A program made the translations under genes and the position numbers. Below the pieces are notes generated by a model. The model was given only the letters and a program-made list of their open reading frames with translations, was not told the origin of the DNA and made no database searches. Shown piece by piece: positions 9,451 through 64,000 of a stretch of 64,000 bases of DNA. Positions within the stretch are counted from its first letter, which is position 1; the number at the start of each line of letters is the position of its first letter. The stretch is from Paraspadella gotoi (lineage: Eukaryota > Animalia > Chaetognatha): positions 9,439,308 to 9,503,307 of the forward strand of contig CM119271.1 in the NCBI GenBank assembly GCA_051294375.1, given 5' to 3'.

Positions 9451-9488
<38 letters not shown>

Positions 9489-9588: not shown

Positions 9589-9632
<44 letters not shown>

Positions 9633-12781: not shown

Positions 12782-12920
12782 ATGTTGGAGAGTTTATTAA
12801 TTGACGCTTTTACGGACTGGTTTGTTTGATTGGTAGACATTGTGTATAAACTATCAATTTCGTTGCGTTTTAAGTTTAGGAGAAAAAACAATTTATTTGT
12901 TTTTATCAACGAATTGTATT

Positions 12921-12976
12921 ATTGGTAAGACATGTTTCGACTCTTGAGTTTTAGAGTCTTCATCAGTTATGACAAT
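12921..12976 (-). ncRNA. Minimal type I hammerhead ribozyme in 5' pLTR
   Basis: Same sequence as the 9366-9421 copy. Confidence 0.8.
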
Positions 12977-13133
12977 CAATATTTTTACTCTTTAACATTA
13001 GTTTAGAAGAGAGAGAGAAGAGAGAGAGAGAGAGACAGAAAAGAGGGAGTTCCAACAAAGAATTGAGCAAAGGACAGTGGTCAGATATGAGGACAGGTGA
13101 AGGTAAGATCAGGGAAGAAGTTGGGTGAAATTG

Positions 13134-13165
<32 letters not shown>

Positions 13166-13513
13166 CACAGGGTAAGAGAAAATCTTTACATTTTTTTGTA
13201 ATGTATAACAATGATAGAGAAATAAAATAACAAACTTAATAGTTAAACTAATAGTAACATTGTAAAATAAATTAATGAGTTAAAGAAGGGGGGGGCCAGC
13301 TCATTTTGAGCTCTTTTCTCTCAACTTAATTTTCACTAACTCTTTACTTACCTATCCCTCATCACTTATTCTTCTATTTCAATTTCAACTTCTTTAACTC
13401 ATTAATTTATTTTACAATGTTTATATAGTTTAACTATTAAGTTTGTTATTTTATTTCTCTATCATTGTTATACATTACAAAAAAAAATGTAAAGATTTTC
13501 TCTTACCCTGTGT

Positions 13514-13555
<42 letters not shown>

Positions 13556-13653
13556 CAAATTTCACCCAACTTCTTCCCCTGATCTTACCTTCACCTGTCC
13601 TCATATCTGACCACTGTCCTTTGCTCAATTCTTTGTTGGAAACTCCCTCTTTT

Positions 13654-13691
<38 letters not shown>

Positions 13692-13717
13692 AACTAATGT
13701 TAAAGAGTAAAATATTG

Positions 13718-13773
13718 ATTGTCATAACTGATGAAGACTCTAAAACTCAAGAGTCGAAACATGTCTTACCAAT
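13718..13773 (+). ncRNA. Minimal type I hammerhead ribozyme in inverted pLTR
   Basis: CTGATGA 13728-13734, stem II GACTCT/AGAGTC, GAAAC 13756-13760, predicted cleavage after GTC at 13765. Confidence 0.8.
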
Positions 13774-14615
13774 AATACAATTCGTTGATAAAAACAAATA
13801 AATTGTTTTTTCTCCTAAAAAACATTTGTAGAAAACTAATAGAGTTTTAAAAACAACTTTGTTTTCAAGGATATAAGTTAATTTCAAAATGTCTCTCTAT
13901 TACATTTTTTTAAATCACTAATAAAAAATTCATAAAAAATATCAGACGGATTGGCTTTTTTGTTTGACCTGCAACTCTTCAGATAGGTTTCTTTTATTTT
14001 TATATTATAATTTAAAATTTGATATAAAATGGCATAGAATGCATCAAATGTTTAAAGTGAATAAATTTTTGGAATCGCCAGAAGCTCAGCTTTTTGAATC
14101 TGGACTTCATATTGACTAATTTTAAAGTTGATTTGAATGACCCTTTGTCTTAAGGATATGTAATTAACGAATTTTAAATTTTTTTTTTAAATTTTAACAT
14201 AACAGTATAATAAATTCAATTATTTATGTAATAAAAAATAAAAAATCATATAAAATAAAATAAAAAAAAATTATAAAAACATTAAATTTAAAATATTTTT
14301 TTTTATTTTTAAGAACAGATTCGCTTGAAAAAAACTAAGAAACTTTTATAAGATATGTTAAATCATATTTTAATATTAATACTGCAAAAAATGACTAAAA
14401 CATTTTAACATATATAAGTTTTTATTAAATATTCATAAAATAGAAAAATAGAAAATAGCGAAACAAGTAATTTACAAATTTTTATAGAGTAAAAAATTAT
14501 TAAAAGTTTAAAAAAAATTATTTTTAAAATTTATTATTTTATAAGAATATTATTACAAATATATTTAGAGAAAAACAAAGTTTTATTAGTTTCAACGAAT
14601 TTGTTTTTATTGGAA

Positions 14616-18000: not shown

Positions 18001-21000
18001 CCAACTTTTTATGTTATTATCAGTAAGCAGTAAAAAAAAAAACTTTAAAAATTCTGAATTGCTACTTTATCTATGTATTATGAAAACATTTTTCTATATT
18101 GATTCCCAACTTCGATGTTGGTGACAGTAATTAGTAAAAAATTAGAGCTTTAATAATTCTGCATTGCGACTTTATCTATGTATTATGAAAACCTTTTAGT
18201 ATAATAATTCTTATCTTCGATGTTGGTGACAGTAATTAGTAAAAAATTAGAACTTTAAAAATTCTGCATTGCGACTTTATCTATGTATTATGAAAACCTT
18301 TTAGTATAATAATTCTTATCTTCGATGTTGGCGACAGTAATTAGTGACATTTGGTAAAAAAATTGAGCTTTAAAAAAAATTTTAAGAGGAAAGGTCATTC
18401 AGCATAACAATACGTAATCATTGATGTGTTAGAGCTAATATATCGAGAAATACATTATAGTCATCAGTAATCACAAAAAAAGTTTCTTATTTATATGTAA
18501 ACATTCCGTTTTCAATATTTTTTTTAAAATGGGTAAATAACAAATTGTTAAGTTAAATGGGTAAGCACATTTTTTAAAGATTTGTTTTTCAATCTGGTTG
18601 TTAAAAAATTCTAGGTAAGAAGTTAAAACACGGTATGGAATAGTTTAGAAGGGGAGAATTAAGCAATTAATCTCGTTACTCTGTTGGTTTTCCAGTCATG
18701 AACAAAATCTTCAGTTAAATAGATAGTAAAGAAATTCGAGCTACAATGAATCTACACTGAATTTGAAGAGTTGCAGCCTAAACGACTGCAATAATATTGA
18801 ATTAAAAATCTGATTAGCAATCTTAAACATTTGTAAAAATGTAATAGAAAGACATTTTGATAAACGCGTTCCAGTTAGAAAGAATTCAGGGTTAAAGTTA
18901 AAAAACGTTTCATTTTCAAGGATACAAGTTGAAATTTAAAAATGTCTCTCTATTACATTTTTCTAATTCAGTAATAAAAAATTCATAAAAAATATCAGGT
19001 GGATAGGCCTTTTCGTTTGACCTGCAACTCTTCAGATAGGTTCTTTTATTTTATATTATAATTAAAACCGATATAAAATGGGGTAGAATGCATCAAATGC
19101 TTAAAGTGAATACATTTTCGGAATCGCCAGGAGCTCAGCTTTCTGAATTTGCCATTTTAGCCTATTTTAAAGTTGAATTAAATGACCCTTTTCCTTAAAG
19201 ACGCATCGAAAATTTATATCTTAGTATAACAATGACTTGCTAATGACAAAGTCATTTCTTTAATTAAATGTTGATTCTTAGTTGCCATTCCATATTTTCT
19301 ATACAAACATTTTAGTAAATAATATTTCGAGTTACAAGAGGACATTAAGATCTTATTAATCGTTGTGAGTCATTAAAACTAATCCCGACATCTAAAAAAA
19401 CAATATACTTTCTGGCGGTTCGATCATGATCAATTTATTTGAATTGTCAGCGTTTTTTCCTTTTTTTACTCAAACTCTCGATCATTTAAATTATTCGATT
19501 CAAAATACGAAGAACAAAGTTGCTGTTTATTATCAAGAAAAGGTTGTCACGATAAGTTTTCCTAATGATAATTTCTACTGTTCTTTTATTTTGACTCAGG
19601 ATTCAGCTTACGTCAAGTTTAGCGAACTTTAGCTATAATAGTTTTATTAATAGCTATATTACCAAATTACTAATGACCCTCTACTCACTCTGTCAGCAAG
19701 AAGAAGACAACGCCGGAATAATTTTGCTGCAAAAGAAAAAAAAAAAAGAAAACTGAAGAGAGAGTATGTGTTAGTGACAGAACCGTTCAATATAAGCAGT
19801 GCCAGAGCTTCGGATCAGGCGGTAACACCGAGTTACAGGCGGGTTAAGCGCACCGTCCCTCTTAACTGCTAGGCAACCACCGGGCTCGAACCCAGGACCT
19901 TTGGGTCGGGAGGCGAATGACTTGCCTCCGGCATCAATGGCCGCTGATGAACGGTTGGTAGAATTTAGTCTACCATAAAACGATTGATTCGTCACTTTCA
20001 CAAGAGTGTTATTATTATTTATTATGTTATTATTATTATTAAAATATTACCTGCCTTCTCACTATCGTTGAATATTAGCTATTGCATGGTCTTTCCTATC
20101 ATTCTATCTATTCATAAGGCCCTCTCTATCACGCTACCCTCACAGTGATTCTCAGCATCACATCACATCACTAAATCCTTATCAACAAAAGACTCGACCA
20201 TCAATATACTTTTAACCTTGCCCTCAATATCGCTTAATACTTACCAAACGCTGCCCTTCAAACTCTACCCGTCAAACTTACCCCATCAAACTTTCACCAT
20301 CAAACTCCAACCCGCCCCAGAAAACATTCACCACCAAACTTGAACTCCCCCATCAAACTTTACCCATTTAACTCAAACACGGCCCAGCAAACTTTCATCA
20401 TCAAAGCTAAACTTTTCCCCGTCAAACTTTCCCCATCAAACTTTCCCCAGAAAACATTCACCACCAAACTTGAACTCCCCCATCAAACTTTAACCATTTA
20501 ACTCAAACACGCCCCAGCAAACTTTCACCATCAAAGCTAAACTTTTCCCCATCAAACTTTCCCCATCAAACTCTCACCATCACGTTGCTATCGATGATCG
20601 TTTGATAATACAAACAGCCCAGAAAGAGTGCCAGCACCAGCGCCTCCACCAGCTTCAGCAGCAGGAAGAACGGGTCTCGCCCCAGCTTCTTAAAAGTCCG
20701 GTACATCAGCCAGATGTACTGATTGGCCGGGCTCGTTTGGTAAGAGTTCAGGCTGAAGGGGTAGATTCTGTGGAAAAAATGATGGAGGAAACATCAAATG
20801 AGATTTTCGGGGTATTTTACAAACTGTACGGGTCTTATTTCTTTACATATTGATTGTCATCATTGTTTATTTTAATGTTGATTATTGTTGATAGTTGTTG
20901 ATAGTTGTTGATAATCATTAATTAAAAATAATCAAAAACTCTGAGATACAAAGTAAAGTTGCTATAAAAATTTGCATTATAAATGGGATATTTGTTGGAA

Positions 21001-23386
21001 AATGTTTTTGTCATAAAATAATAAAGTAATAAATTTTGAATACATAGATAAGAACTAGGAAGCTGTCAATTATCCAGCAAGTTTGAAAATATATTTAAAG
21101 GTAATTTTCCTTTTTTGTATGGTGGACTAAAATCCACCAACTGTTCATCAGCGGCATTGGTGCCGGAGGCAAGTCATTCGCCTCCAAACCCAAAGGTCCG
21201 GGGTTCTAGCCCGGTGGTCGCCTAGCAGTTAAGAGGGACGGGCGCTTAACCCTCCTGTAACATGGTGTTACAGCCTGATGAGAAGCTCAGGGACTGCTTA
21301 TTTGAACAGTTCTGTCATTAACACATAACAATTATCACTGTCTGTCTCTTCATTGGTGAGCCCGACTTCCAAACACACAGCAACAACAACACTTTCAGGC
21401 GACATGCTCAACCTGGCGATGCACTTTCCGCCAACAACACATCAGGCGACATGCCTCAACTTGGTGACGAACTTTCCACCAACAACAATGGAAGAAACGC
21501 AACAGACTTCTCCCTACGGGAGGGGGGGATACAGTGGACTAAAATCCACCAACCGTTCATCAGCGGCCATTGTGCCGGAAGCAAGTCATTCGCCTCCCAA
21601 CCCAAAGGTCCGGGGTTCTAGCCGGTGTCGCCAGCAGTTAAGAGGGACGGGGCGCTTAACCCGCCTGTAACATGGTGTTACAGCCTGATCCGAAGCTCAG
21701 GACTGCTTATTTGAACAAGTTCTGTCATTTAACACATAACAATTATCACTGTCTCTTCATCTGATTAATTATTACTTGTTCTAACGGAATTAGATTAACC
21801 TCTCAATTCTCGGAAAAGGTTTTCGATTAGCGTCCTTGATGAGCTCTCGGTATTTATTCCCGTAAGTCGACGATTCAAATGAACTCGCAATTATCTGAAT
21901 ACAGGGTTTTGTTAAATAAGCTTGACCAAATAGTTAAACACTGTACCATGTAAAATATCAAAAGATATATTAATAATTATTATCGAAGTAATATGTAGTA
22001 TGAGTTATAAACAAAAATCTATCATGGCTTACCTAAATTTAGGTAAGTTTTCTAAATTCGGCCACAATAACTTACCCTAACCCGCTTCCTTCGGAAATCT
22101 TCCTCTCCGGGCACCACAGCCAAAGTGTGGATTAAATGGTCGGCCAAATTGTAGTTTTTCGGACATGGGAAACCCATCCTAAATTTTGCAAAAAAAAAAA
22201 TGGTTGGTTTGGTGTGACTATCATGATCAGTATATTGATGTTAGTTATTAATAGAGTTTTTAACTTCAACTATGAGTTTACACAACGGTTTTAAACAATT
22301 GTTTTTAGTTTAGCGGTTTTATTAAATAGAAGTAATAACAATTTAACGATGTGAAACACTTTACATACGAAAAAAAAAAAAAAATTAAAAAAGAATCAAA
22401 ACGAAAGGAAATTTGACTCGTGACGATAAAACAAATGACAAAATGAGACCAACTGCCATCTAACGCCGGCCTCATGTCTAACAAAAAAATTTACAAAACG
22501 GAAAAAAAAATAAACAAAAGACAACCCGTCGAAAAACTCTGCGGCGTCGTCCACGCAGCCGCAGAAGCAGAGCCTTCCTTCGCCCAAGAGGTAGAGTCGA
22601 TCGAACATGGCGAAGGTTTCGGACGAAGGCTGATGGATCGTCGACACTATCGTCTTGCCCTCTCGGGCCATCTTCTGGAGAGTGGGGGTTTAAATTTGGA
22701 GGGGGGTGGGTAAGGGGGTTAGGACCGAGTGTCGGCGGACGAAAAGAAAAAGGAAAAAAATGAAGAAAGAAAATAAGGAAAGAAATGAAAGAGGAAGCTT
22801 GGAAAGGAGAAGGATGCAAGGTAGAAAGAAAGAAAGAAAGAAAGAAAAAAAGAAAGAAATAAAAGAACGAAAGATAGAAAGAAAGAAATAAAGAAAAAAG
22901 AAATAAAAGAACGAAAGATAGAAAGAAAGGAAAAGAAAAGAAAAGAGAGAATACCATCACAAGGTAAGCACGCCAAAAAATCAGATATAAGCGAGCAGTC
23001 ATCCAAATATATGTGAGGTTAAATTGAGTTTAGTTAAGTCACCATTGGTAAACTAAACGCCAAAGAAACAAGAACGGTTCATCCAATGTGTTGCACCGCA
23101 GTAACTTGCTTAGCCTATGGATTGGAATATCGTCTTTCATTCCTTATAGTTTTAGGATTTCCTTACGGTGGCGCTAGCAGTCACTTAGATTTGAATTTTT
23201 TTCCTGTCTTAACAAATGAGCATCTAATTATAGGTGAGTTATGAGCATTTTTAACGTAAGTGGGACAGATCGATGGACAGACATACTGACCGACCGACAG
23301 ATCGACCGAAAGGTCACTTATAGAGTTGCTCCACGAGTACTCGCGGCGCAACTAAAAAGGAGATAAATTCTACAATCCCCCTAATT

Positions 23387-26400: not shown

Positions 26401-29208
26401 AATATGAAAATTTACAAAATTACTTATTTCACTATTTTCTATTTTTTTTAGTCGGATCTGCTTATCAGCAGATTCTGACTCTATAATTCACTTTGTCAGT
26501 CCGTCGGTCCCACCCCAAAATATTGTCGGTAAATCATTATTATCATATCAGAACCTCGAATTACGATAAATTATGCAAAAAAATGATACCCGTCTGTCCG
26601 TCCATCCGTCCGTCCGTCTGTCTGTCCGTCCCCCCTTAGCAAAAAAATCCAATTCTCGTGATTGGGATGGATGGATTGGTATGAAATTTTGTGTGGGTAG
26701 GAAACTGTGTGATTGAGATGGATATGAAGTTTCGATGGAATCGTGCGAGTGAAATTGGTTTCATGGAAAAAACAAAAAAATCTATTTCACTATTTGAACG
26801 CCAATTGCTCATGAGTGGATAGGGCAATTGACTTGAATTTTGTATGATTGTAGGAAAGTGTGTGATTGCGCTGGATATAAAGTTTCGATGGAATCGTGCG
26901 AGTGGAAATGAGTTAAAATGAAAAAAACAAAAGTCATATTTACTTGAAGTATTTAATTTCTTAGTTTTGGATTATTTGGGTTTAGAACCATTGCGTATTA
27001 GAATAATTAAGAGGGCACATTTGCAAATGCGAGGTTTGATTGAAAAACAACCACTTTTACCTAAATACATTGAAAACATGAACGATTTTAGGGCGAGCAG
27101 AAGGGCAACATGTCCTTCGAATTTTTAAGTGAAGTACCTAATATATTTCCTTTGTAAAAATTTTTTTGTTCTGTTCTAAACTTAAGATTTAACTCTGTTT
27201 TCTTTGTATAGGATACTGTTTGTATTTGAAAAGAGTTATGAAATATTAATTACAGACTACAGTAAAAGATACGGATTTAGAAATGGATTGAAAATTCCTT
27301 TTCACCTGTTTGGTGCCGTAATACTTGTTTACGATGATAACTATTGTTCTCGTTATGCTGTGATTAATTGTAAACCTGTCTGTGATTATTTGTAACTGCG
27401 ACCCATGGCCTACCCCCGGCCCGTCTTCTTGAATAAATCTAATCTAATCTTACTTAAATTTACTCATAATTATTTTGTTTATTAAAAATTAGATAGATAA
27501 ATTGGAATGGAATTTTTTGTGTGGGTTGGAAAGTATGTGATAAAGCTGGATATAAATTTTTTGATGGAATCGTAGGAGTGGAAAAGAGTTCAAATTAGAA
27601 AACCAAAAGACACATTTATTTGAAGTTTCTCTCTCTCTCTATCTCTCTCTCTCTCTTGATTGATTGATTGATTGACCAAATTATGCCAATTGACAAAAAT
27701 ATGCAAGTTGACCAAATTATGCCAGTTGACCAAATTCTGCAAGTTGATCAAATTATGCCTGTTGATCAAATTATGCCAGTTGACCAAATTCTGCAAGTTG
27801 ACCAAATTATGCCAGTTGACACAAATTATGCCAGTTGACCAAATTCTGCAAGTTGACCAAATTAGGCCTGTTGATCAAATTATGCCAGTTGACCAAATTA
27901 TGCCAGTTGATAAAATTATGCCAATTGACCAAATTATGCCGGTTGACCAAATTATGTTAATTGACCAAATTATGTATGTCAGTTAACCAAATTATGTCAG
28001 TTAAACAAATTATGACAGTTGACCAAATTAAGTCAGTTAACCAAATTATGTCAGTTGACCAAATTATGTCAGTTGACCAAATTATGCCAGCTGACAAAAT
28101 TATGTCAGTTGACCAAATTATGCCAGTTGACCAAATAATGCAAGTTGATTAAATTATGCAATTGACCAAGTTAGCTTATTACCACTTAATTATCGAAGGC
28201 AGATCCGATATTGTTTGCTCAAACTTGTTTCTATTTTATAAAGTATGAGATTGTATGATATCGTAGAAATCGATTTTAACTTACTCTTAGGTTGGACCAT
28301 TGAACTACCATGAATTGCTCTCCAATCGATTGTCTGTTAAAATGTATAAATGCTCGTCATTTTTCTGTACAGTGTACACCCAGAAAAATATGTTTCTTTA
28401 TTATAAAAATTTAGTATTTTATTACACAATTTGGTACGCGGCAACGATAAAATGTCCACAGATTTACTCAGATTTACTCAGATTTTGCTGATATTTACTC
28501 CTGTTCAAACTCACTCGCCAGATTTTTTTGTCGTGGAAACTCGAAGCGAAATTTGCTGCTTATCTGAAGAAAAAAAAAATTAGTACATTGCTAAAATGAA
28601 ATTTATCATGGAAAAATAAAGAATAATCCCGTTAAACTTTCCAGCATTATACAGTTAACGATACTCGGGATCAAGCTGTGGTGCCATGTTGTAGGCAAAT
28701 CATTCGCAACTTCTACGCAATCGCCCGGTCTCGAACTCCAGACCTTGAGGGTTCCAAACATCAACTCACACGTTTCCCAACTGGTCAGCGGGTCTCCGCC
28801 TCTCGTCTCCTGCGTGTACGTCGGTCCGCGCGTCGATTGACTCGGACGAGATTCGTACGGTGCGGACGTCCAGCGACCGGAATCCCCGCGCGTTGGAAGC
28901 CCCATCGATTGATCGGGAACTGAGCTTCTCGCCGTCGCGTTGGCCACTGATTGGTCTTGATTGGAATCCAACGTTGTAGGATTGGCGACTGATTGGTCTT
29001 GATTGGAATCAAATGTCGAAGGATTGGCTATCGTTTGTTCTTGGTTGGAACTGAGATTCTCTATTGCTTGGTCTTGATTGGAACTCAACGTCGTTGGATC
29101 GACAATTGCTTGCTCTTGATTTGAAGCCAAGCTCGTTGGATCGACGTTTGATCGGTTGGCTGCTTGCCGCCGGCTTCCATTTTCTTCGTCCGAATTTTTA
29201 TTCTCCAT
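15078..29208 (-). CDS. White/ABCG-family ABC half-transporter, ~745 aa. Exons: 29208-28770, 26212-26153, 26074-25950, 25554-25451, 24839-24712, 23661-23507, 22674-22526, 22178-22076, 21894-21800, 20767-20578, 19726-19689, 17256-17142, 16604-16461, 16322-16294, 16118-16005, 15677-15611, 15260-15078
   Basis: Walker [14 protein letters not shown]-loop FVQQED, signature ISGGEAKR, Walker [13 protein letters not shown]-loop [20 protein letters not shown]2-type TM exons; GT-AG junctions keep frame throughout. Exon 1 is the least certain. Confidence 0.9.
17311..17941 (-). mobile_element. DINE-1/Helentron-associated-like non-autonomous element, family A copy 1 (intronic)
   Basis: T-run, palindrome AGTCGGATCTGCTTATCAGCAGATCCCGACT, (GTCC)n tract, 3' subterminal GCAGATCCGA, short hairpin and T-run; homologous to 26442-28230. 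Confidence 0.65.
18040..18346. repeat. ~105-bp tandem repeat, ~3 copies
   Basis: AATTCTGCATTGCGACTTTATCTATGTATTATGAAAAC...TTCGATGTTGGTGACAGTAATTAGT repeated. Confidence 0.85.
18386..19194. mobile_element. Non-autonomous TTAA-flanked TIR element, copy 2 (uninterrupted, intronic)
   Basis: TTAA|GAGGAAAGGTCATT ... AATGACCCTTTTCC|TTAA; homologous to 8837-9281 plus 13816-14149. Confidence 0.75.
19750..19974 (-). mobile_element. tRNA-derived SINE-like repeat
   Basis: A-box-like motif and B box GGTTCGAGCCC; homologous to four other copies. Confidence 0.75.
20270..20580. repeat. Degenerate CATCAAACTTTCCCC minisatellite with ~120-bp higher-order duplication, next to a splice donor
   Basis: Block CCCCAGAAAACATTCACCACCAAACTTGAACTCC occurs twice. 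Confidence 0.75.
21121..21352 (+). mobile_element. tRNA-derived SINE-like repeat
   Basis: 5' hairpin GGTGGA..TCCACC, tRNA-like region with A/B boxes, tail ending GTCTCTTCA. Confidence 0.75.
21534..21759 (+). mobile_element. tRNA-derived SINE-like repeat
   Basis: Near-identical to 21121-21352. Confidence 0.75.
23066..23357 (-). mobile_element. DINE-1/Helentron-associated-like element, family B
   Basis: Minus strand TTTTAGTTGCGCCGCGAGTACTCGTGGAGCAACT palindrome + CTATAAG + (CGGT)n; 3' end TGCAAC...CTTGTTT. Confidence 0.55.
23687..23870. repeat. ~75-bp tandem repeat, ~2.5 copies, next to a splice acceptor
   Basis: CACAGAGGCTCGAATTATAAGCACCACCCTGCAAA recurs at ~23687, 23761, 23836. Confidence 0.85.
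24056..24286 (+). repeat. Diverged dispersed repeat (second copy ~31363-31563, minus strand)
   Basis: Shared blocks ACACCGCCTCAC, GGCGTTGYGTTCC, CACAGTYCTAACGACTTCC, AGCCCCCAAA in the same order. Confidence 0.55.
26442..28230 (+). mobile_element. DINE-1/Helentron-associated-like element, family A copy 2, with internal minisatellite
   Basis: Same 5' palindrome and (GTCC)n tract as copy 1; 3' end GGCAGATCCGATATTGTTTGCTCAAACTTGTTT. Confidence 0.6.
27672..28170. repeat. 18-bp minisatellite GTTGACCAAATTATGCCA
   Basis: More than 20 copies; explains the PVDQIM-periodic ORFs. Confidence 0.95.
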
Positions 29209-34292: not shown

Positions 34293-35654
34293 ACTTATTA
34301 CAAATATGTTGTATTATATATCGATATAAAATGAAAAACCGAGACATACAAAACCGATTTATAATTAATTTTAATTTAACGGCTCATAGCTAATAGATAT
34401 ACTGTACAAATGTTACAAACGAGAAAAATCATAAATGTATTTTTAATTCCATTCTTTTTTTTTTTAAATCAGAAAATTAGATTTCATCGCTGAATCAATT
34501 TTATAGAGTGATGCAATAACTATTTTATATGAGACTGAGAAAAGGAAGGGATTTTAAAAAATAAAAAAAAGAAACTGGAAATTAGTATTAAATAAAAAAC
34601 CGTTAGAAATAAAAAAAGAAATATTTTTTTGGAACAACGAATTTTTTTTTGGCATGGTGTTAACACCAGTCATGACCAGAACACGGCCGTGGCCGTGGAC
34701 TACGCCGACGAGTTAATAATCTGTTCTGCCTCGCCCGTTTCCCGCGAAGATTCGATGCGAAAGTGAAGAATATCGCCGATAATTTTTAAAATATTAGCTT
34801 CAACCATTTTTCATTTTCTTCCTTAGCCAAACTTTAATTTTGACCGTACATAAACTGTCCTCCCGTGTTTGGGCATACCTTTTCTGGTTATTTGTCCGTC
34901 TTTTGTCGATCTTAATTGTCGTACGATATGTCGTAATTTGGCGAGACAAAGATAATTATCATTCGTTTTTTGAACAATCTCCACGAAGCATTACCCGTCC
35001 TCAACTACAAGTTTAACGGGATTTTGGACGTTAATACAAATAGTTTTCTAAACCTTTCATCGCCAACTTTAACAAGTTTAAATCAATTGAAATTTCTTTA
35101 ATATTCAGTAAGATTCATAAAAGCTACGTTTAAAAACTGCAAGGGACGGCCGACGCCTCAAAACGCTAGCTATCGCGAGCATGAAATAAGCTATTTCAAC
35201 AATTATATTTAAAGTATAAGAGTCCAAGAGAGAGAGAAAAATGCCTCTCCAAAACCTGCGGACTTAAACGCTTTAACATAGCGTTGTGGTTTAAATCTCG
35301 TTTTTTTTAAAGTCATTTTAAAGTCATGTTTTAACTTTTAAGTCTCGGAAATTAAAACTCGTCACATTGCCAATTTTTAGTTTTTGATAATAAACTTACC
35401 AACCCTTTCAAAAATCATACGTCCTTTCGATTAAAGACTAAAGTCATGCCATAGTGACAAAGTACAGCAAATCGAGAGAGGCAACGAAACACATGGAAAT
35501 AGTTCTTGTATTTTTGTCGTAAAATAAATAAAAAACAGCTTATATAATAACAAAAGGCCAAAGTTTTTTATAATTTAAATTTTAATTTTCGATTCTGACC
35601 ATTAAAATGCCAAAAAAGAGAAAGGAAAGTAATCGCTGTCAATTTAATTTTCCA

Positions 35655-55583: not shown

Positions 55584-55608
55584 NNNNNNNNNNNNNNNNN
55601 NNNNNNNN
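55584..55608. other. Assembly gap (25 N)
   Basis: N run. Confidence 1.
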
Positions 55609-56009
55609 GAAGAGATGAGAGTTATGAAATGATATTGAACATTATTAGGTAAGTCGATGTGAATGAATGAAGATGATATGAACGTGTATATGTATATTGC
55701 GAGATCGAGTGAGAATGAAGGAGCGAAATAGATATGATATCGAAAAGGATAGTAAAAACTGAGAAAGAATAAATGACCCAATGAAGTCGAGATGAATGAT
55801 GAACTCGTAGAAAGTATTATCAATATTGCAATAAAGATAAATGGTATGATATTGCAGTATAATGCATGATATATGAATGTTTGATACTACTAAAAATAGA
55901 AAGAAAGGAATAGAATGAGTATGAGTGAAATGAAGTAAATGAAATGAAATGAATGGAAGAATGAGAAAGAAGAGAAGTAAACACGGAACCACCGAAGAGA
56001 AATGACAAC

Positions 56010-56125
56010 AGAAAAAGAAATTATTTCATTTCTAAATTTGTGCTCACGATGGAATAAAAAAATTCATGGCGATGTTTCGTGCCTCGACAAAATTCGACGT
56101 TTTTAAGTGTCCTCTCATTTCCTCT

Positions 56126-56157
<32 letters not shown>

Positions 56158-56348
56158 ATCGGGCATTTTATGATCGCGTTGTGAAGGTGGGTTCAGTAAG
56201 GGGGGGGAGAGGGGGGCACTGCAGAGAGAGAGAGAGAGAGGAAATGAGAGGACACTTAAAAACGTCGAATTTTGTCGAGGCACGAAACATCGCCATGAAT
56301 TTTTTTTACCACCTGGAGTCACAAATTTAGAAATGAAATAATTTCTTT

Positions 56349-56350
<2 letters not shown>
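56010..56350. repeat. Long inverted repeat (foldback/MITE-like), ~125-bp arms
   Basis: ATTCATGGCGATGTTTCGTGCCTCGACAAAATTCGACGTTTTTAAGTGTCCTCTCATTTCC matches its reverse complement at ~56239-56300. Confidence 0.9.
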
Positions 56351-56379
<29 letters not shown>

Positions 56380-56629
56380 TCCTCTCTCTCTCTCTGCGCT
56401 TCTGCGAATCGAAAACGACAAATTATGGTTCTTTTTTAAAAGCCTCAAAAAAATATTCAATCAGGTTTCGAATCGAGTTTTGCGATTTTTTTTTTTGGTC
56501 TTCAGTCTTTCATTTCAATTTCTTTCTTTTGTCTCCTCTTTTTCGACGCTGGGAAAGTTTCGAGGGAAGAGTGAGGACTAAGGAGGGTAAGAAAGAATCT
56601 CACAACGGAAGCTGTCGCCTCGTTTTGGG

Positions 56630-56995
56630 TTTAGGGTCTGCAGCGTTTGTGATTGTGATTATATCTGTTTGTGGTTTTGAGTTTTTAAAGCATGATTTAT
56701 CTTGATTGAAAACTGGTAAGTTGGGAATGAAAAAGAATTAAAGTAATTTTAGTCTTTTTCAATTTTTGTCAGTTGAATGTTTGAATTAATGAATGCTTAT
56801 TTAATAGTTAATCCGTCAGAAACGTCTGAAACGGCCTCCAAAATATATCCCGCTTGTTGCTTTGGCTTAATACGACGAGAATAATAAACTCAAGTTGGGA
56901 AAGAAAATAGAACTACAATGAGCTGTTTACTCTATACAGTTACTCTTTATTTATGAATTTCATTTTTTTCTTCGTCTCGACGTAGATGGCCTGCC
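56630..56995 (+). repeat. Left copy of the direct duplication flanking the viral insert (lacks 266 bp present in the right copy)
   Basis: Matches 62241-62333 plus 62593-62874 except for homopolymer lengths. Confidence 0.95.
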
Positions 56996-57108
56996 TGTTT
57001 GTGCCTCTGTAGTTTCGATCACGTTGGCTGACTTTAGTTCTTAAATAACGTTCAGTTTTTGGAACAGGTTGGCGAGTTTATTTATCAACAAACAATTGGC
57101 GACGAGGA
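56996..57108 (+). mobile_element. Short 99-bp LTR-like unit (TGTTTGT...ACAAACA, 56996-57094) followed by PBS TGGCGACGAGGA (57097-57108)
   Basis: TG..CA ends with a 7-bp terminal inverted repeat; PBS complementary to the animal tRNA-Ser(GCU) 3' end (recalled as ..TCCTCGTCG-CCA); starts exactly where the flanking duplicates diverge. Confidence 0.7.
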
Positions 57109-57555
57109 ACGAAGATAAAAATGTTTGTTTCATAAAAACGAGGTGTGAAATTAATTCTTAATTTCGAGATTAAAATATAAAAACGTAAATATAAAATCAA
57201 TTAAAAATAAACCCCAACGGCGAGATGTTAAAAACGTTGAACGTTCTAGAGGCAACGACTTTCTCTCTCTAAAACATTGTTAAAGTTAAAAATAAGACGG
57301 ATACCAATTGTCCCTTTTTTCCCCCTTTCTTCGCGACTGAATCAGTTGTAAAACTTTTCCCTATTATTTGGCCGTCTCGATCGCGATGTCGTCCGCCGGT
57401 GACTCGCGGACGTTGAACTTTTATTCCGCGCGGGAACGCTCGCGTCGGCCGCCACGACCGTCAAAACAGTTTTGGGTGTGCTGTTCATGACGGGTCCCGT
57501 TCCGAGTTCCTCTTCACCTTTTCCCTTCATGTTCCTTTCGTTTTTCCTGTTGTGT

Positions 57556-57876
57556 CTATCCTCTGACTTCAAGGGGACGTTCCCCTTCTATTTCGATGCG
57601 GCGCGTCACCGCTTCCGTTCGGTCGAATAGAAACCGCGCCGGCACCTTCTCAACTCCCTCCAGAGCGTTCAATCTCCATTGGTCTCTTCTTATTCTTGCC
57701 ACATTGTACACCTCTCGCAGCTCCTCCACGCTCTGCAACTTCCTTGCTTCTAACTTCTCACATTCCGCATAATCCCGCCTGCACCGCGTGATTCTCCTCT
57801 CAACTCTCGCGTGGTCCCAGCCTTCCCGTTGGTGCAACCTCGCTCTCCTCACATCTTCACCTGGATCGTAGCTGTA
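57556..57876 (-). pseudogene. Probable frameshifted C-terminal continuation of the RdRp P-loop domain
   Basis: Overlapping frame reads YSYDPGEDVRRARLHQREGW, resembling an NMP-kinase-like lid region. Confidence 0.6.
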
Positions 57877-60800
57877 CAGTGTAGCAAATGCCTGCCTCCG
57901 CGCACGCCTCCTTAACTCGCCATGGTCCTCCCTGCCCGAGCAACACTGGGCCCCACCGCATGGCTCTTGAAACCAGATCCGTTACCGTTTTCCAAATTGC
58001 TCCAAAGCTTGATTTCGGTGCAACTGCACTTTCCCTCTCCCTGATCGTTCCATAGGTATCCATCCACACGGCGTCTAGATCCACCAACCCTCGAATGGTC
58101 CGACACGCGTAAGTCTTTCCAGCTCCGTTACCCATGTATACGTATATCAACTCTCTGGGATAGAAGTCTCTTTTATGTCCGTGATATCCCAGATATGGAA
58201 TAGTGGACCAGGTCTTGGCTGCCCGCAGGTTCATTTGTAGAAGCCATCCATTCCCGCTCAGCGGCAAAAACTGATTACCGAGGTTTTCGAACTTAGCCCA
58301 GGACTCAAGCGGTATCTTCCCAGCCAAGTTCTCAACTCCTCCAAGTTTCCGCGCTAGGAATAGGGGCACGCCCATCTTCCCGCACAGTGACTCCTCTGTC
58401 ATCATCATTTCCTTTTTTGGAAATCCATATCTCACTTCAGCCAGATCAATCTCATCTATCGGGGGATAGCTCCAGTCCCTTTCTCTCTCAAGCAGTGACA
58501 ACCCATCATTTTCTCTTGATGGCCAGTATTGCCAACACCACTGCTTGGCAGTCTTTTGTTGCCACACGCGCAGGCATGCTCCTATTGTCTGGTTTTGTAC
58601 ACTTTCAACAAACTCTGCCTTGATCCTTCCTGGCAAGTATGACAGCAGGCTCTGGTGTCTTTTGACATATGCCTTGCTAGCATGGTTTTCCCACTCCTTT
58701 CCTGGTTTAGCGAGCGCTTCAAACTTTGGCATTCCCAGCACTTCTTCCCCATCATATCTAAAAAGCGGTGGTACCTCAGTGCTGAACCGGAACTTCCACC
58801 ACTCGAGTGGCTTGTCTGGTTTCTTTCCCTCTGGGTCTCGGACGACCATCAGTTTCTCGAGTGTGTGGGCAGCCATTCTTCGCGCATACTGCTTCTGCAA
58901 GCCCCGGCAGTGCAATTCCCAGTAGTTAGAAGCAATGCTGGGCAGAGAGGTCTGTATCCAAGTGCCCAGTTGCGTATACCAGTTCCCCGTCGCCAAGGTC
59001 GCCAGTAGAGAGCACAGAGGTTTTTCCGTGCGTGTTTTCTCTACCGCCGTGAGTTGCAGGAATTCATGGTTAGACCTCCCCGCCATCTGCTTAGTCGGAT
59101 TCAGCTGATGGTTCACCCCGCATAGGATCCCAAAATATACTGCCGCAGCTGCCACGTCCACAAATGCCACGTCCTCATCATCTCCGCAGAGCGCCTCAAA
59201 TCGAGTGTCACCAGGTGAGAGATATGGCTCGCAGTTCCTAATGTTAATGTCCATGTCCACCTTGTGCTTTCCGGTGTTATCCCGTGCGGTCGTTCTCGTT
59301 CCACTGTAGAGTCCTTGCACCATTCTGATGTAATATTTCCCGTCTTCGCCCAACTTCATCCCTGCCACGTCCGCATATTTCTTCTGCGGTCCGAAAATGA
59401 TATATGACTGAGCGTGGCTGATCACAGTCCAACAAAATGCAGCCGCCTTGGTCCGATTTTCCCAGCCAGATCCCTTCTCTAGGTGTAACCGCGCTGTCGC
59501 CATGCTCAAGGCACCCATCTCATAATTCGAGTGCTCTGAGTTATAATCACTATAGTCGGAAGACAACCAATAGGTCCCTTCTGATGCTGGTCCGGCAAGT
59601 CCCCCAGCCGATTCTGCCATCCAGGTTATCACATCCGCCGGGGTTTGTCTCACCATCACTCCCGGAGCCGCTCCCATATACATCTCCACCGCCTGATTTG
59701 AGTATTGTGCAATGAACGATTCCTCATCATAGGTCGCGTACAGTGCTCGCAGCTTGTGACCTGGTTCAGGTTTTACGAAGTAGTATGCTCGGTTAATTGG
59801 TTCCATCATCATCATACGCCGCAACGATTCGTCGTCCAAGTATTCTACTAAAGCTTTCTTGCCTGGCCGATCTGCCTCTGCCAACCTTGGCTCCTCAATC
59901 TTAACGTTCTTGATGCCCTTGCTCGCTCCTGACGCCCCACGCACTGCCCTCTCGCTCCAAAAATCCCGGTCATCCTTCCGGAGTATTTCTGGATTATAAG
60001 CACAGAAAATTTTCCTGAAATTCTCCTCTGCAGATTTTTCAAAGAGCTCTTCATAAACCGTGTATGCACTCTTACCTCCCGCAAACACGTCGTGACCGTA
60101 ATGTTGCTTCCGCATCACCTGGCAAGACCGGACGAACACTTCATATGGTAGATTTGCCTCGCCCTTGCACCGTATTGTGACATTCGTGAGTTTTCGAAGT
60201 TGCAGTAGTGATTCTCCTATCACATCCCCAAAACTTAGCGTGCGTCGAACTTGAGTCAATGGCGTCTTTATTCTGAGATACCATTCCGCCAGTGGCACCT
60301 CGAACCATCCATGACACAAAATTTCCATCCAGATCTGCACGTCCAGACTCACCATCGCTACTACCGTGCCGATGATTTCACTTTCGTCAGACTCCGGACT
60401 CAAGTTGTGCAGATATTCAGCGATTGGTTCAGCACCTGGCATTGCCGCAGTCAATGTGCCAATTGTGAAGGTCACCGGCATCCCTCCAACGGGCTTACGC
60501 CGCGGCATGTCCGACTCCCGCTCGCTCTTCCTTGGATAGAGTTTTTCAAGGCATCTGGCCATGAAACGTTGTTTGGCATCTCCCGAAATGTCCGCTCCTT
60601 CCTTCACCTCCAAAAGCTTCCTCCGTCGAGCCTCGATCATTGCAGTCTCGTCTCCGCTTTGCGACATCCTGCCGCTTCGCGCACCCAGCATTCGGTAGTC
60701 TTCCGGGCTAGTCACCGCGGGATGAACAGTCGCTAGATACGCGGCTCTGTTGCGAGGAGTCAGGGTAGACAGCCAAGCACGCAGTGGGGCCAGTCCGCTG

Positions 60801-61099
60801 TAGTAGTCCGAGCAATCAACGCTCTTGCACTTGGCCTTGTTGATCTCGCCCTTCCGGGAGGCCCACCAGCCACCGAACTGCTCCAACAGGGTGTTTGGGC
60901 ATGCCCCTGCCAGCAAGATGTGGTTTACCTGGACCTGCCGGCAGAGTTTCCTCCCGGGAATTGAGCGCCAACCTCCCCAGTCTCGCACCCCTAGACAACC
61001 GCATCGCGTGATTAGTGGTGGTTCGTCCACATCGATGGGTGCAATTCCGATGCTGCTGTTGAAGATCTTAGCACCCCGCTGACTTAGCAGTGGAGACAT
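57857..61099 (-). CDS. Viral RNA-dependent RNA polymerase (toti-like) with C-terminal P-loop domain, 1080 aa
   Basis: Motif F KPEPGHKLRALY, A SDYSDYNSEHS, B GLYSGTRTTARDNT, C GDD (59177-59185), NPTKQ, E HEFLQ; Walker A GNGAGKT (58112-58132). Confidence 0.93.
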   Translation of the reverse strand: MSPLLSQRGAKIFNSSIGIAPIDVDEPPLITRCGCLGVRDWGGWRSIPGRKLCRQVQVNHILLAGACPNTLLEQFGGWWASRKGEINKAKCKSVDCSDYYSGLAPLRAWLSTLTPRNRAAYLATVHPAVTSPEDYRMLGARSGRMSQSGDETAMIEARRRKLLEVKEGADISGDAKQRFMARCLEKLYPRKSERESDMPRRKPVGGMPVTFTIGTLTAAMPGAEPIAEYLHNLSPESDESEIIGTVVAMVSLDVQIWMEILCHGWFEVPLAEWYLRIKTPLTQVRRTLSFGDVIGESLLQLRKLTNVTIRCKGEANLPYEVFVRSCQVMRKQHYGHDVFAGGKSAYTVYEELFEKSAEENFRKIFCAYNPEILRKDDRDFWSERAVRGASGASKGIKNVKIEEPRLAEADRPGKKALVEYLDDESLRRMMMMEPINRAYYFVKPEPGHKLRALYATYDEESFIAQYSNQAVEMYMGAAPGVMVRQTPADVITWMAESAGGLAGPASEGTYWLSSDYSDYNSEHSNYEMGALSMATARLHLEKGSGWENRTKAAAFCWTVISHAQSYIIFGPQKKYADVAGMKLGEDGKYYIRMVQGLYSGTRTTARDNTGKHKVDMDINIRNCEPYLSPGDTRFEALCGDDEDVAFVDVAAAAVYFGILCGVNHQLNPTKQMAGRSNHEFLQLTAVEKTRTEKPLCSLLATLATGNWYTQLGTWIQTSLPSIASNYWELHCRGLQKQYARRMAAHTLEKLMVVRDPEGKKPDKPLEWWKFRFSTEVPPLFRYDGEEVLGMPKFEALAKPGKEWENHASKAYVKRHQSLLSYLPGRIKAEFVESVQNQTIGACLRVWQQKTAKQWCWQYWPSRENDGLSLLERERDWSYPPIDEIDLAEVRYGFPKKEMMMTEESLCGKMGVPLFLARKLGGVENLAGKIPLESWAKFENLGNQFLPLSGNGWLLQMNLRAAKTWSTIPYLGYHGHKRDFYPRELIYVYMGNGAGKTYACRTIRGLVDLDAVWMDTYGTIRERESAVAPKSSFGAIWKTVTDLVSRAMRWGPVLLGQGGPWRVKEACAEAGICYTVQLRSR

Positions 61100-61111
61100 G
61101 TACTCACTCTT

Positions 61112-62140
61112 TTAGGTACATAGTTCCAAACCCATCTGCATTCCTGCCACTCCCCGGGCCCAGCCGCCACCACGTTCTTCAATTTGAGGCATGATGGGCT
61201 CTCCAAAATCATTTTTCTGGCGTTCCCACACATCTCGCATGATGACCAACTGCCTTTCGTTGTACCTGGGTCGCTGCCACCGGTACACGTCCAATGCCGA
61301 CTCAGCTTCAGCAATCAACCGTTCGCAGCCAGCTGCAAAAGCTTCCTCAGAAACCGACCTGCCGTTTTCCTGCATCTCTGTCCCGATCAGAGACTTTCTA
61401 TCAGGTGCCAGGGGAAGAATCGCTGCATCAAGCACCCGCATTAGCTGCTGTTCCTGGGGCCAAGACATCTCCCCTGCCCGAAGCAGCATCTTAACGTAAG
61501 CTATCACGCCCGTGTCGCAATCAACCTCCGTCCACAATCTCTTTTGGTTCCCAACACAGGCACAAATGGCTTTCTTGACCAATTCCCATTCTTCCGCGCC
61601 GATCTCCAGAGGACGTGTCCGCCGTGGCCGGAGATCATCCGCTAGTGCCAACCTCTCCGGAGCAAAACTGATTATCTCCATCCCATCCCGCACATCAACA
61701 ACTTCAGCATAACCCGGCGGACACCAGAACTCTTCTTCTTCAGCAGTGTCACTCAACACCAAAGAACCTGCTCCCTGCATTGTTGCATGAGGTTCCAAAG
61801 GTGCTATCCTATCCCGCACGGTAAACAGAGTTTGTGTGGTCGCCATGGCATTCCATCGTGAGATGAACGTCTGTCCACGACGAGTAGCCCTCTCAAGCTC
61901 CTCAAGCAGAAAATCTTCTTGCGCCTCATGCAACTCCCGCAGTTTCTGGAGTTGCCTGAGGCGGTGCACATCGTCCTCTCCCGGCGCGTCCCGAGCCAAT
62001 TCGTTGGCAATGGCCGCGTGCAATTCCCCCAGTTGGCGAGAGCAGGTATCTAACGCCTCCTCATAGGCGACTCGACTCCGCTCCGCACTTGCCGCAATCG
62101 ATTGAAAAGCTGCCACAATATCACGTGACGCAGCTCCCAT
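61112..62140 (-). CDS. Viral ORF1, 342 aa, unknown function, coiled-coil-like N-terminus
   Basis: Uninterrupted ORF with the same composition as the RdRp ORF, in the same frame, 12 nt before the RdRp ATG. Confidence 0.75.
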   Translation of the reverse strand: MGAASRDIVAAFQSIAASAERSRVAYEEALDTCSRQLGELHAAIANELARDAPGEDDVHRLRQLQKLRELHEAQEDFLLEELERATRRGQTFISRWNAMATTQTLFTVRDRIAPLEPHATMQGAGSLVLSDTAEEEEFWCPPGYAEVVDVRDGMEIISFAPERLALADDLRPRRTRPLEIGAEEWELVKKAICACVGNQKRLWTEVDCDTGVIAYVKMLLRAGEMSWPQEQQLMRVLDAAILPLAPDRKSLIGTEMQENGRSVSEEAFAAGCERLIAEAESALDVYRWQRPRYNERQLVIMRDVWERQKNDFGEPIMPQIEERGGGWARGVAGMQMGLELCT

Positions 62141-62240
62141 GACACTCTCTCAATTGCAACCTCGCTCAATAGACTTCCAATATGGAATAGACGCCTTCAC
62201 ATGGTTTTCACTGAAAAACACTTTCGTGCAAAAGCGTCTA

Positions 62241-62874
62241 TTTAGGGTCTGCAGCGTTTGTGATTGTGATTATATCTGTTTGTGGTTTTGAGTTTTTAAA
62301 GCATGATTTATCTTGATTGAAAACTGGTAAGTTTTTTTTTGTTTTTTTTTTTTTTTTCTGAAAAGAAAACAGAGCAAACAAATAATTGCGGGAATGGTTG
62401 CAAAAATATCTTATGTCAACAATAAACGAGAACAAATAAGGGGAAGATAAAAATGAAAAAGAAGAAGAGATCGGGAGACAAAGTCAAGCAACTCCGTCCA
62501 CATGAGACGGCAACTCAATCACGGGACTTCGGGAAGCGAGCAGGTCCCCGTTCTCGCGCTGAAGGCAGACAGAAAGTCTCTCAAAAAAGTGAGTAAGTTG
62601 GGAATGAAAAAGAAATTAAAGTAATTTTAGTCTTTTTCAATTTTTGTCAGTTGAATGTTTGAATTAATGAATGCTTATTTAATAGTTAATCCGTCAGAAA
62701 CGTCTGAAACGGCCTCCAAAATATATCCCGCTTGTTGCTTTGGCTTAATACGACGAGAATAATAAACTCAAGTTGGGAAAGAAAATAGAACTACAATGAG
62801 CTGTTTACTCTATACAGTTACTCTTTATTTATGAATTTCATTTTTTTTCTTCGTCTCGACGTAGATGGCCTGCC
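62241..62874 (+). repeat. Right copy of the flanking duplication (634 bp)
   Basis: Matches 56630-56995 with an extra 266-bp segment between two GTAAGTT motifs. Confidence 0.95.
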
Positions 62875-64000
62875 ATTACATTCAGATAAACGTTAACAGC
62901 CAGAATTAACCCAAAACCGCAAACGAGTGTCGCCCGAATTCGCCTCCTCCCTTTCGAAAATTAAATAATCATGATCGTCACAAATTTGAATTTCCTCGCA
63001 AAAACTTTAAATATTTCTCAGAACGACGACGACGACGACGACGAACCTAAAATTACCCAGAAACGGAGAAATCAAAAAGGCAAAAAAGAAAGAAAGATTT
63101 TCATGAAAGAATTCGCGATTGACTTGAGATCGACACCCACAGAAATAAAATTGGAAACCACTTTTCTTATGCATGCGTCAAGACGAAAGAAACTTCAGCT
63201 TTCTTTTTTTTTTATTTTCTTTTTTTTTTTAAGCCGGTGACATTTTGGGTTTTGTGTCTCGGGATTTTTCTGAAAAGAGAATCGGTAGTTGTCTTGAATC
63301 TTCGGAAACAACCTCAGGTTGTTTGAAATGTTGGACATATATTGTTGTATATATTTTAGGATGTTCGGTACAAGCCAGTGCAACGACTGATTTTTTGAAA
63401 GCTAAACGCGACGCGACATCCCAGAGTTTCATAAGAAACGACAGAATTTAAATTAATAAATCAAGAGATCAACTTCAAGTAGTATTAAACTTTCTTTTTC
63501 AACCACAGGTACATCATTAACGGATCCAAAGTTAAAATTCTGTCGAAATTTATCTCATTCTTCTTCTATGTACTGCTTTGAAATTCCAAAATTGCCTAAA
63601 TATGTCGTAAGACATAAATGGTTTTTTAGGCATACTTCTCACTTTGATCATACAAACACCTTGACCCCAAATTAAATTGGCCGCCATTCAATTTCTTAAC
63701 ACCGACGCAGCCAACTTTTTTTTATTAAAAAAAAAATTAAATCTGTTAATTGAAATCGTGAATTTTATTCTCTCACTCGCCCCAGTTCGTGAAATATTTC
63801 TGCTGTGAATGTTTCTCAACCAGGATTTCTCCTTTTTTTTTATTTCACGAAAACCCCAAACGAAAAACTTTCACTAAAACCGTTTCGTGACGAATGAGAA
63901 AGAATCTAGTGATACATAATTAAAGAGCATATCCGTTAACGTCAGCCATTTTTTTTTCGCCGACATTTGAGATTTACGAATTGATTTAAAACATCACGCA

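What the first reader, a model, noticed from the sequence alone, without database searches (positions are those of the whole stretch)
56630..62874. Large asymmetric duplication instead of a short TSD: one-ended integration signature
Seen: 366-bp (left) and 634-bp (right) direct repeats bracket the insert and differ only in homopolymer lengths. The left copy lacks 266 bp between two GTAAGTT motifs. The viral end joins the right copy directly with only a few T of overlap. Inferred: the LTR end integrated precisely while the LTR-less viral end was joined by host repair, duplicating ~630 bp; the near-identity implies a very young event.
Basis: partly seen in the sequence, partly recalled or inferred. 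Interest (0 to 1): 0.7.

Follow-up and report, generated by a model that had tools for sequence, protein, structure and literature searches.

The report
Virus copy integrated by one end
A DNA copy of an RNA-virus polymerase gene, fused to the front end of a host retrotransposon, sits between two copies of about 368 bases of host DNA, likely because only the retrotransposon end was inserted by integrase and host repair copied host DNA onto the other end, and the extra 266 bases in the right copy are likely a separate jumping element rather than a deletion from the left copy.

Summary
The repeats are real: 56630-56995 and 62241-62874, with 0 substitutions. The two homopolymer differences are likely consensus errors of the window, since 4 of 4 runs read the right-copy lengths. 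The insert is a 99-bp LTR-like unit, a tRNA-Ser primer site and a 361-bp leader of a multi-copy family, fused to an antisense 4,771-bp toti-like (ditolivirus-like) RdRp sequence of whole-segment size. The family boundary falls at the repeat's end; the viral end has no LTR. This matches one-ended integration as known from ASLV and HIV experiments.

The 266 bp are high-copy, with a poly(A) tail, a 7-bp duplication and a truncated 5' end: likely a retroposon inserted in the right copy. The duplication is therefore about 368 bp, not 630. 'Very young' is not shown: the virus copy is in all 6 runs laid (3 studies) and carries SNPs, a deletion variant and two frame breaks. The repeat|LTR junction was seen in only 1 of 4 runs, short of the tool's bridging rule, and no empty allele was recovered. 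Verdict: known mechanisms in a combination I did not find in print.

The parts
56630..56995 (.). Left copy of duplicated host DNA (366 bp in the window, 368 bp as read in public runs); under the model the original target DNA
   Evidence: flank|repeat junction in 4 of 4 runs
56996..57094 (+). 99-bp LTR-like unit, TG...CA ends with 6-bp inverted repeat; 5' boundary of a multi-copy family; likely the integrase-joined end
   Evidence: (other flanks before 56995-56999; X2 record 56966-57020 crosses the junction)
57097..57108 (+). Primer-binding site, 12-nt match to the 3' end of tRNA-Ser(GCT)
   Evidence: sequence; same first 12 letters as the tRNA-Ser(GCT) primer in PMC9072684
57109..57469 (+). 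Leader of the same multi-copy element; other family copies diverge from the window at about 57468-57470 (switch point to the virus)
   Evidence: tables 2, 7, 8 (virus unitig starts 57439; X8 loose ends behind 57468)
57470..62240 (-). Toti-like (ditolivirus-like) dsRNA virus sequence, 4,771 bp: 100-nt leader, RdRp reading frame (ATG 62140 to stop 57556) broken by an in-frame stop at 61112-61114 and a change of frame near 57880-57886, 86-nt tail
   Evidence: (RdRP_4, E 7.5e-13); one 4,832-nt contig in X2 (0 differences) and X5 (3 differences)
62241..62333 (.). Right copy, first part (ends in the first GTAAGTT); joined directly to the viral end at TTT
   Evidence: viral letters loose before 56630 in 4 of 4 runs
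62334..62592 (-). 259-bp retroposon fragment with poly(A) tail, flanked by a 7-bp duplication (net +266 bp); high copy; other copies run on past 62591, so this one is 5'-truncated
   Evidence: tables 2, 7; (X2 loose poly-T behind 56722)
62593..62874 (.). Right copy, second part, continuing into unique DNA (ATTACA)
   Evidence: loose ATTACA end behind 56995 in 4 of 4 runs

Best explanation
A 4.8-kb antisense copy of a toti-like virus polymerase RNA is fused to the LTR, primer site and leader of a host LTR retrotransposon and is flanked by two copies of about 368 bp of host DNA; it likely arose when integrase joined only the LTR end and host repair likely extended the LTR-less viral end along nearby host DNA, and the extra 266 bp in the right copy are likely a separate retroposon insertion. 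Steps: (1) Inferred: the element's reverse transcriptase left its own template about 375 bases past the LTR and switched to viral RNA. [quoted passage not shown] Copying the abundant viral minus strand is the alternative. (2) Inferred: integrase joined the single att end at 56995|56996. (3) Inferred: the free plus-strand 3' end annealed by 1-3 T at 56630, 368 bp upstream, was extended through the target and resolved by recombination, which gives a direct repeat in the observed orientation. (4) Shown as anatomy, timing inferred: a 5'-truncated poly(A) retroposon entered the right copy with a 7-bp duplication. Shown: the sequence anatomy, the copy-number classes, the virus|repeat and flank|repeat junctions, and the presence and polymorphism of the virus copy in runs of 3 studies.
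For: Identical repeats bracket the insert exactly. The family 5' boundary coincides with the repeat end; TG..CA ends and a tRNA-Ser site follow. X2 holds a 58-nt record across repeat|LTR at depth 178, close to the virus depth of 207, and X2 shows all four junctions. The first 93 bp of the repeat have a depth close to flank plus virus (X1 184 vs 75+82; X2 292 vs 102+207). The X1 contig of repeat plus downstream DNA reads 133 against 127 predicted for a two-copy repeat; weak, since depth is no copy number. The insert length of 4,771 matches RdRp-only records of relatives of 4,756-4,758 nt (3 records) and 5,065 nt, and ditoliviruses have a separate RdRp RNA (PMC10868552). HIV and ASLV one-ended events most commonly duplicate host DNA, by hundreds to thousands of bp, usually with short homology at the aberrant end (PMC5041404). 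Virus-LTR hybrids form in infected cells (PMC6797480). The 266-bp part has 124-589x summed depth, a poly(A) tail, a 7-bp duplication and a shared continuation in other copies.
Against: The repeat|LTR junction appears in only 1 of 4 runs (X2). It has 30 and 25 letters on the two sides, below the tool's 31/31 bridging rule, and X2 may be the source sample. In X1, X5 and X6 the repeat contig runs straight into ATTACA; contigs drop low-copy links next to high-copy repeats, so this is not absence, but it is no support either. No listed record spans the locus, and no empty allele was recovered. X5 and X6 depths over the repeat (16, 14) are not doubled. No 3' LTR, polypurine tract, gag or integrase of the donor family was seen, so LTR status rests on the ends, the primer site and copy number. 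The closest RdRp hit (CsTLV2, 55%) is monopartite with a capsid gene upstream, so the right end may not be a viral RNA terminus. Opposite polarity of virus and LTR is the minority pattern in Aedes (543 of 614 same polarity; 10.1101/127498).
Confidence: 0.68

Rival explanations
1. Two-step history (pseudo-TSD): an ordinary LTR element first inserted at 56995 with a short duplication. A later break inside it was repaired by capturing viral cDNA and copying upstream host DNA, or recombination between pre-existing duplicates made the flanks.
For: The end state is the same. PMC5488345 raises pseudo-TSD models for HERV-K sites with 111-450-bp repeats. In Aedes, viral DNA can integrate without LTR fragments (PMC8048955).
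Against: It needs two rare events at one site. No joint from the LTR end to ATTACA is listed in the 4 runs. The leader|virus switch sits about where the viral 3' end is expected (86-nt tail), which fits a reverse-transcriptase jump.
Confidence: 0.14
2. Assembly join of haplotypes: an empty allele (flank-repeat-ATTACA) and a virus allele with a different left flank were merged, so the repeat is single-copy on each chromosome.
For: No repeat|LTR record in X1, X5 or X6, and the repeat contig is not doubled in X5 or X6. A gap (55584-55608) and a palindrome (56010-56352) lie just to the left.
Against: X2 holds the repeat|LTR junction at virus-like depth, independently of the window's consensus. X5 also lacks the window's letter at leader sites such as 57112, where X2 keeps it, so X5 demonstrably drops low-copy paths beside this family.
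Confidence: 0.1
3. One reading: the retroposon was already there, 634 bp were duplicated, and the left copy lost 266 bp precisely between the GTAAGTT motifs. Variant: the new right copy was templated from a homologous chromosome that carried the retroposon.
For: The end sequence allows it; recombination between 7-bp duplications gives exactly the left copy. The inter-homolog variant needs no extra event.
Against: Under the model the left copy is the uncopied original, so precise loss needs a further rare event. The poly(A) tail, duplication and truncation are the marks of an insertion. This rival concerns only the order of events, not the integration mechanism.
Confidence: 0.15
4. The repeats are themselves the LTRs of a multi-copy element that carries the virus.
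For: Direct repeats of 0.4-0.6 kb flank a 5.2-kb insert.
Against: The repeat has only two entries and two exits in the contig graphs and low depth. It has no TG..CA ends, and the primer site follows the 99-bp unit, not the repeat.
Confidence: 0.02

Closest known systems
One-ended (aberrant) retroviral integration in ASLV end mutants and in HIV-1 with suboptimal integrase inhibitors (PMC5041404: passages and the whole Discussion read; the ASLV papers only as cited there)
   Same: One normal integrase junction, the other end joined by host enzymes; long duplication of host DNA at the aberrant end; short homology at that junction.
   Different: Those are induced in cultured cells with retroviral DNA. 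Here it is a natural, apparently inherited case, and the bad end is non-retroviral viral sequence with no LTR at all.
HERV-K (HML-2) loci with long target-site duplications, including the truncated provirus at 6p25.2 (PMC5488345: passages read)
   Same: Natural LTR-element insertions flanked by 111-450-bp near-identical repeats; one is a truncated provirus; recombination between the repeats may regenerate an empty allele.
   Different: There the insert is the retrovirus itself. Here a 99-bp LTR with 375 bp of leader drives in 4.8 kb of RNA-virus sequence.
Non-retroviral EVEs made by LTR-retrotransposon recombination (Aedes Ty3/gypsy and Ty1 hybrids: PMC6797480, 10.1101/127498, PMC8048955, passages read; IAP-LCMV only as cited)
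   Same: Virus sequence fused to LTR-element sequence, likely by copy choice during reverse transcription.
   Different: Here the virus is antisense to the element (the minority class), spans a whole RdRp reading frame with both flanks, and keeps both host junctions readable. The passages I read do not describe long flanking duplications.
[quoted passage not shown]
   Same: RdRp 41-46% identical over 1,030-1,237 aa, with matching C-terminal end; RdRp-only RNAs of 4.76-5.07 kb in the ditolivirus group.
   Different: This is an integrated DNA copy with two frame breaks, and no capsid or RNA2 sequence lies in the insert; CsTLV2 is monopartite.
5'-truncated non-LTR retroposon insertion by target-primed reverse transcription (textbook hallmarks, recalled)
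   Same: Poly(A) tail, 7-bp duplication, truncated 5' end, high copy number.
   Different: Family not identified; no polymerase III box or Rfam match in the part present.

Membership tests
One-ended integrase-mediated insertion | One intact att end joined cleanly to host DNA | tested here: met
   TG at 56996 is the family's 5' boundary and abuts the repeat; X2 record 56966-57020 has 0 differences. Caveat: 25 letters on the LTR side, 1 of 4 runs.
One-ended integrase-mediated insertion | Other end lacks att or LTR sequence | tested here: met
   The virus contig runs directly into the repeat in 4 of 4 runs; no LTR match near 62240.
One-ended integrase-mediated insertion | Long direct duplication of otherwise single-copy target DNA | tested here: inconclusive
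   Present in the window; all four junctions in X2, low copy; but no spanning record, and depth is not doubled in X5 or X6.
One-ended integrase-mediated insertion | Microhomology at the host-joined end | tested here: inconclusive
   TTT at 62241-62243; the hairpin fold suggests 2 T are viral; the true viral end is unknown.
One-ended integrase-mediated insertion | Empty allele with one copy of the repeat | not testable with these tools
   All 6 runs laid hold the virus. The 368-form-into-ATTACA contigs may be graph paths, not molecules.
LTR retrotransposon (Ty3/Gypsy-type donor) | TG...CA ends with inverted repeat, followed by a tRNA primer site | tested here: met
   6-bp inverted repeat; 12-nt tRNA-Ser(GCT) match 2 bases downstream.
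LTR retrotransposon (Ty3/Gypsy-type donor) | Dispersed multi-copy family with a sharp 5' boundary | tested here: met
   Summed depth 14-141x the virus; at least 4 other flanks; a diverged relative at about 35200-35495 (score 110 vs maximum 87 of 88 background stretches).
LTR retrotransposon (Ty3/Gypsy-type donor) | Second LTR with polypurine tract in full copies | tested here: inconclusive
   No such loose end among the rows shown; tables were cut (174 and 1 rows not shown).
LTR retrotransposon (Ty3/Gypsy-type donor) | gag-pol with Gypsy domain order | not testable with these tools
   No genome is held. The Gypsy label rests on a recalled association of this primer site with Gypsy elements.
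Retroposon insertion by target-primed reverse transcription (the 266 bp) | Poly(A) tail at the 3' end and a short target duplication | tested here: met
   A-rich tail of about 24 nt on the minus strand and a 7-bp direct repeat.
Retroposon insertion by target-primed reverse transcription (the 266 bp) | High copy number and 5' truncation | tested here: met
   Summed depth 124-589x in 4 of 4 runs; similar loose continuation behind 62591 listed for X2 (6 records) and X9 (2 records).
tRNA-derived SINE | Polymerase III A and B boxes | tested here: inconclusive
   None in the fragment (recalled consensus), but its 5' part is missing.
Toti-like / ditolivirus EVE | RdRP_4 polymerase with close relatives | tested here: met
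Toti-like / ditolivirus EVE | RdRp on its own RNA of about 4.8-5.1 kb (bipartite genome) | tested here: inconclusive
   Size matches, but the top hit is monopartite; no tree was built and no RNA2 was sought.
Repeat as an LTR family in its own right | Multi-copy, TG..CA ends, adjacent primer site | tested here: not met

The most novel reading that the evidence does not exclude
One-ended integration is a regular route by which LTR retrotransposons fix RNA-virus sequence in germlines, and it leaves a searchable scar: a single LTR plus primer site, a whole viral RNA, and long host repeats. The repeats then make the cassette excisable and amplifiable. Virus-to-flank depth is about 1 in two samples and about 2 in two others of the same studies, which would fit tandem copy-number variation of an LTR-driven antisense antiviral cassette.
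Probability: 0.2. Interest if true: 0.7.

Novelty: new variant of a known kind. Interest (0 to 1): 0.48.

Why it matters
How reverse-transcribed RNA-virus sequence gets into a germline when the hybrid has only one LTR end is usually left unstated. This locus keeps the switch point and both host junctions readable and points to a mechanism so far shown mainly in induced retroviral systems. It suggests a simple genome-wide test: look for long flanking repeats at single-LTR EVEs. It also warns that an 'empty' allele at such a site may be regenerated by recombination between the repeats.

Tried and rejected
No whole genome is held, so copy number came from public contigs only. No RNA holder is listed (X9 is only guessed to be RNA): nothing on expression either way. 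Study P1 may be the window's source. Splicing as the cause of the 266-bp difference was rejected: the skipped part reads GT..GA, and by hand no register within the 7-bp repeat gives GT..AG on either strand. Rfam on 55609-64000 gave only sub-threshold microRNA matches on the palindrome and microsatellites at 56089-56402. A metagenome scan for the LTR-end and primer motif gave 1 hit, a chance match inside a prokaryotic ABC-transporter gene with no similarity to the window. A viral-contig scan found no RdRp relative. The N-terminal 345-aa piece alone found no homolog among longer proteins (weak), although tblastn of full-length relatives reaches 61495. Three look-ups of earlier findings returned nothing. 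Paper searches returned no description of a non-retroviral EVE with one LTR and a long host duplication; the library lacks most subscription papers, so this is not proof of absence. Supplements were not opened; junction tables in those of PMC5041404 and PMC8048955 may bear on novelty. Contig depth was used only as a weak hint, as the tool warns.

Full report
Observation. A pairwise alignment gives the left copy at 56630-56995 and the right copy at 62241-62874, with 0 substitutions in 366 letters, two 1-base homopolymer indels and 266 extra letters between two GTAAGTT. In 4 of 4 public runs laid on the left copy, the contigs carry the right-copy homopolymer lengths, and three further differences in the left flank are shared by all four. 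The window's consensus therefore likely has small errors, and the two copies are probably identical at 368 bp.

The insert. Between the repeats lie, on the plus strand, a 99-bp unit with TG..CA ends and a 6-bp inverted repeat (56996-57094), a 12-nt match to the tRNA-Ser(GCT) 3' end (57097-57108) and a leader to about 57469. This part is multi-copy: summed contig depth is 14-141x that of the virus, and at least 4 other flanks meet it at 56995-56999. A diverged relative lies at about 35200-35495 on the minus strand. No second LTR, polypurine tract or coding region of the donor was seen, so 'LTR retrotransposon' rests on the ends, the primer site and copy number, and 'Gypsy-type' is recalled.

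[quoted passage not shown] It has an in-frame stop at 61112-61114 and a change of frame near 57880-57886 where relatives are continuous. Its 4,771 bp match RdRp-only records of 4,756-4,758 and 5,065 nt, and ditoliviruses carry the RdRp on its own RNA (PMC10868552). A 100-nt leader with a predicted terminal hairpin and an 86-nt tail flank the frame. It is therefore likely a whole viral RNA, although the top hit is monopartite.

Is the duplication real? In 4 of 4 runs both the left flank and the virus lead into the repeat, and the repeat leads into ATTACA. The fourth junction, repeat|LTR, appears only in X2: a 58-nt record over 56966-57020 with 0 differences at depth 178, against 207 for the virus. 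It has 25 letters on the LTR side, short of the tool's bridging rule, and X2 may be the source sample (its 4,832-nt virus contig has 0 differences). X1, X5 and X6 list no such record. That is weak evidence, because X5 also lacks the window's letter at leader sites where X2 keeps it (57112), so it drops low-copy paths beside this family. Depth is mixed. The first 93 bp of the repeat are close to flank plus virus in X1 and X2, and X1's repeat-plus-downstream contig fits a two-copy repeat (133 vs 127), but X5 and X6 are not doubled. The repeat is low-copy in all four, which rejects the idea that it is an LTR family. I put the duplication at about 85-90% real in the source genome; no spanning record or empty allele was recovered.

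The asymmetry. The 266 bp are not unique host DNA. Summed depth is 124-589x the virus in 4 of 4 runs. On the minus strand the segment ends in an A-rich tail, it is bracketed by the 7-bp repeat, and other copies continue past 62591 with similar letters in X2 and X9. X2 shows the repeat-to-poly-T junction. These are the marks of a 5'-truncated retroposon insertion. The duplication is thus about 368 bp, and the predicted empty allele has one 368-bp copy. The order of events is not shown: precise loss from the left copy, or repair from a homolog already carrying the retroposon, remain possible. The 368-form contigs running into ATTACA in X1, X5 and X6 may be graph paths and do not settle it.

Age. 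0 of 366 bounds divergence only below 0.82%. The virus copy is in all 6 runs laid, from 3 studies, and 9 runs of 7 samples hold the stretch. X5 differs by 3 letters in 4,832. X8 differs by 9 letters and 2 gaps in about 4.1 kb of listed pieces and shows two viral versions, including a 1,264-bp internal deletion. The event is young on a species scale, but old enough to have spread and mutated; 'very young' is not shown. The frame breaks could date from reverse transcription.

Mechanism. PMC5041404 describes what happens when integrase inserts one end only: the free 3' end primes on nearby host DNA, usually through short homology, and recombination completes the join, giving a duplication on one side or a deletion on the other; duplications are commonest and run to hundreds or thousands of bp. 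The geometry here fits (inferred): the att end is joined at 56995, and the free plus-strand end at the viral side pairs with T at 56630 and copies rightwards. [quoted passage not shown] Copying the viral minus strand, which ditoliviruses accumulate in excess, is the alternative. Virus-LTR hybrids are documented in mosquito cells, mostly in the same polarity in the genome, and natural long duplications are documented at HERV-K sites, with a pseudo-TSD rival.

Verdict. The feature is real and the one-ended model is the best explanation (0.68). The deletion, the 630-bp size and the very young age are revised. Each component is known; the combination did not surface in seven paper searches of an incomplete library. 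Virus-to-flank depth of about 1 in X1 and X5 and about 2 in X2 and X6 hints at tandem copy-number variation through the repeats, but contig depth is no copy number. Novelty: new variant of a known kind; interest 0.48.

Noticed in passing
window 35200-35495 (minus strand): Diverged relative of the LTR-like unit and leader, with a degenerate primer site; local alignment score 110 against a maximum of 87 in 88 background stretches.
   Followed up: partly
window 9320-13819: Broken reading frames at 10158-12793 that look like a Penelope-type element by recalled motifs (weak GIY-YIG match, E 0.013, below cut-off), bracketed by nested direct and inverted repeats of 95-153 bp.
   Followed up: partly
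window 56010-56352: Palindromic element with 84-bp perfect arms around microsatellites, 280 bp left of the duplication and 400 bp right of a 25-N gap; a foldback element or an assembly artefact.
   Followed up: no
window 60034-61299: Run X8 holds a contig joining these points (1,264-bp deletion, 4 letters between) beside the full form, and two alleles at 59393-59412: two versions of the viral copy in one sample.
   Followed up: no
window 57112, 57189, 57280, 57315: The window's leader differs from the family majority at these sites (95-100% of X5 depth reads another letter), more divergence than the two repeats show; a variant donor subfamily or homogenisation of the repeats.
   Followed up: no
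window 1-800: Tandem array of a roughly 12-bp unit with many small indels at the window start; a satellite or telomere-like array.
   Followed up: no
window 17578-17941 and 26445-26939; 19853-19939 and 21155-21241: Dispersed inverted repeats of 87-185 bp at 81-93% complementarity, probably small transposon copies.
   Followed up: no
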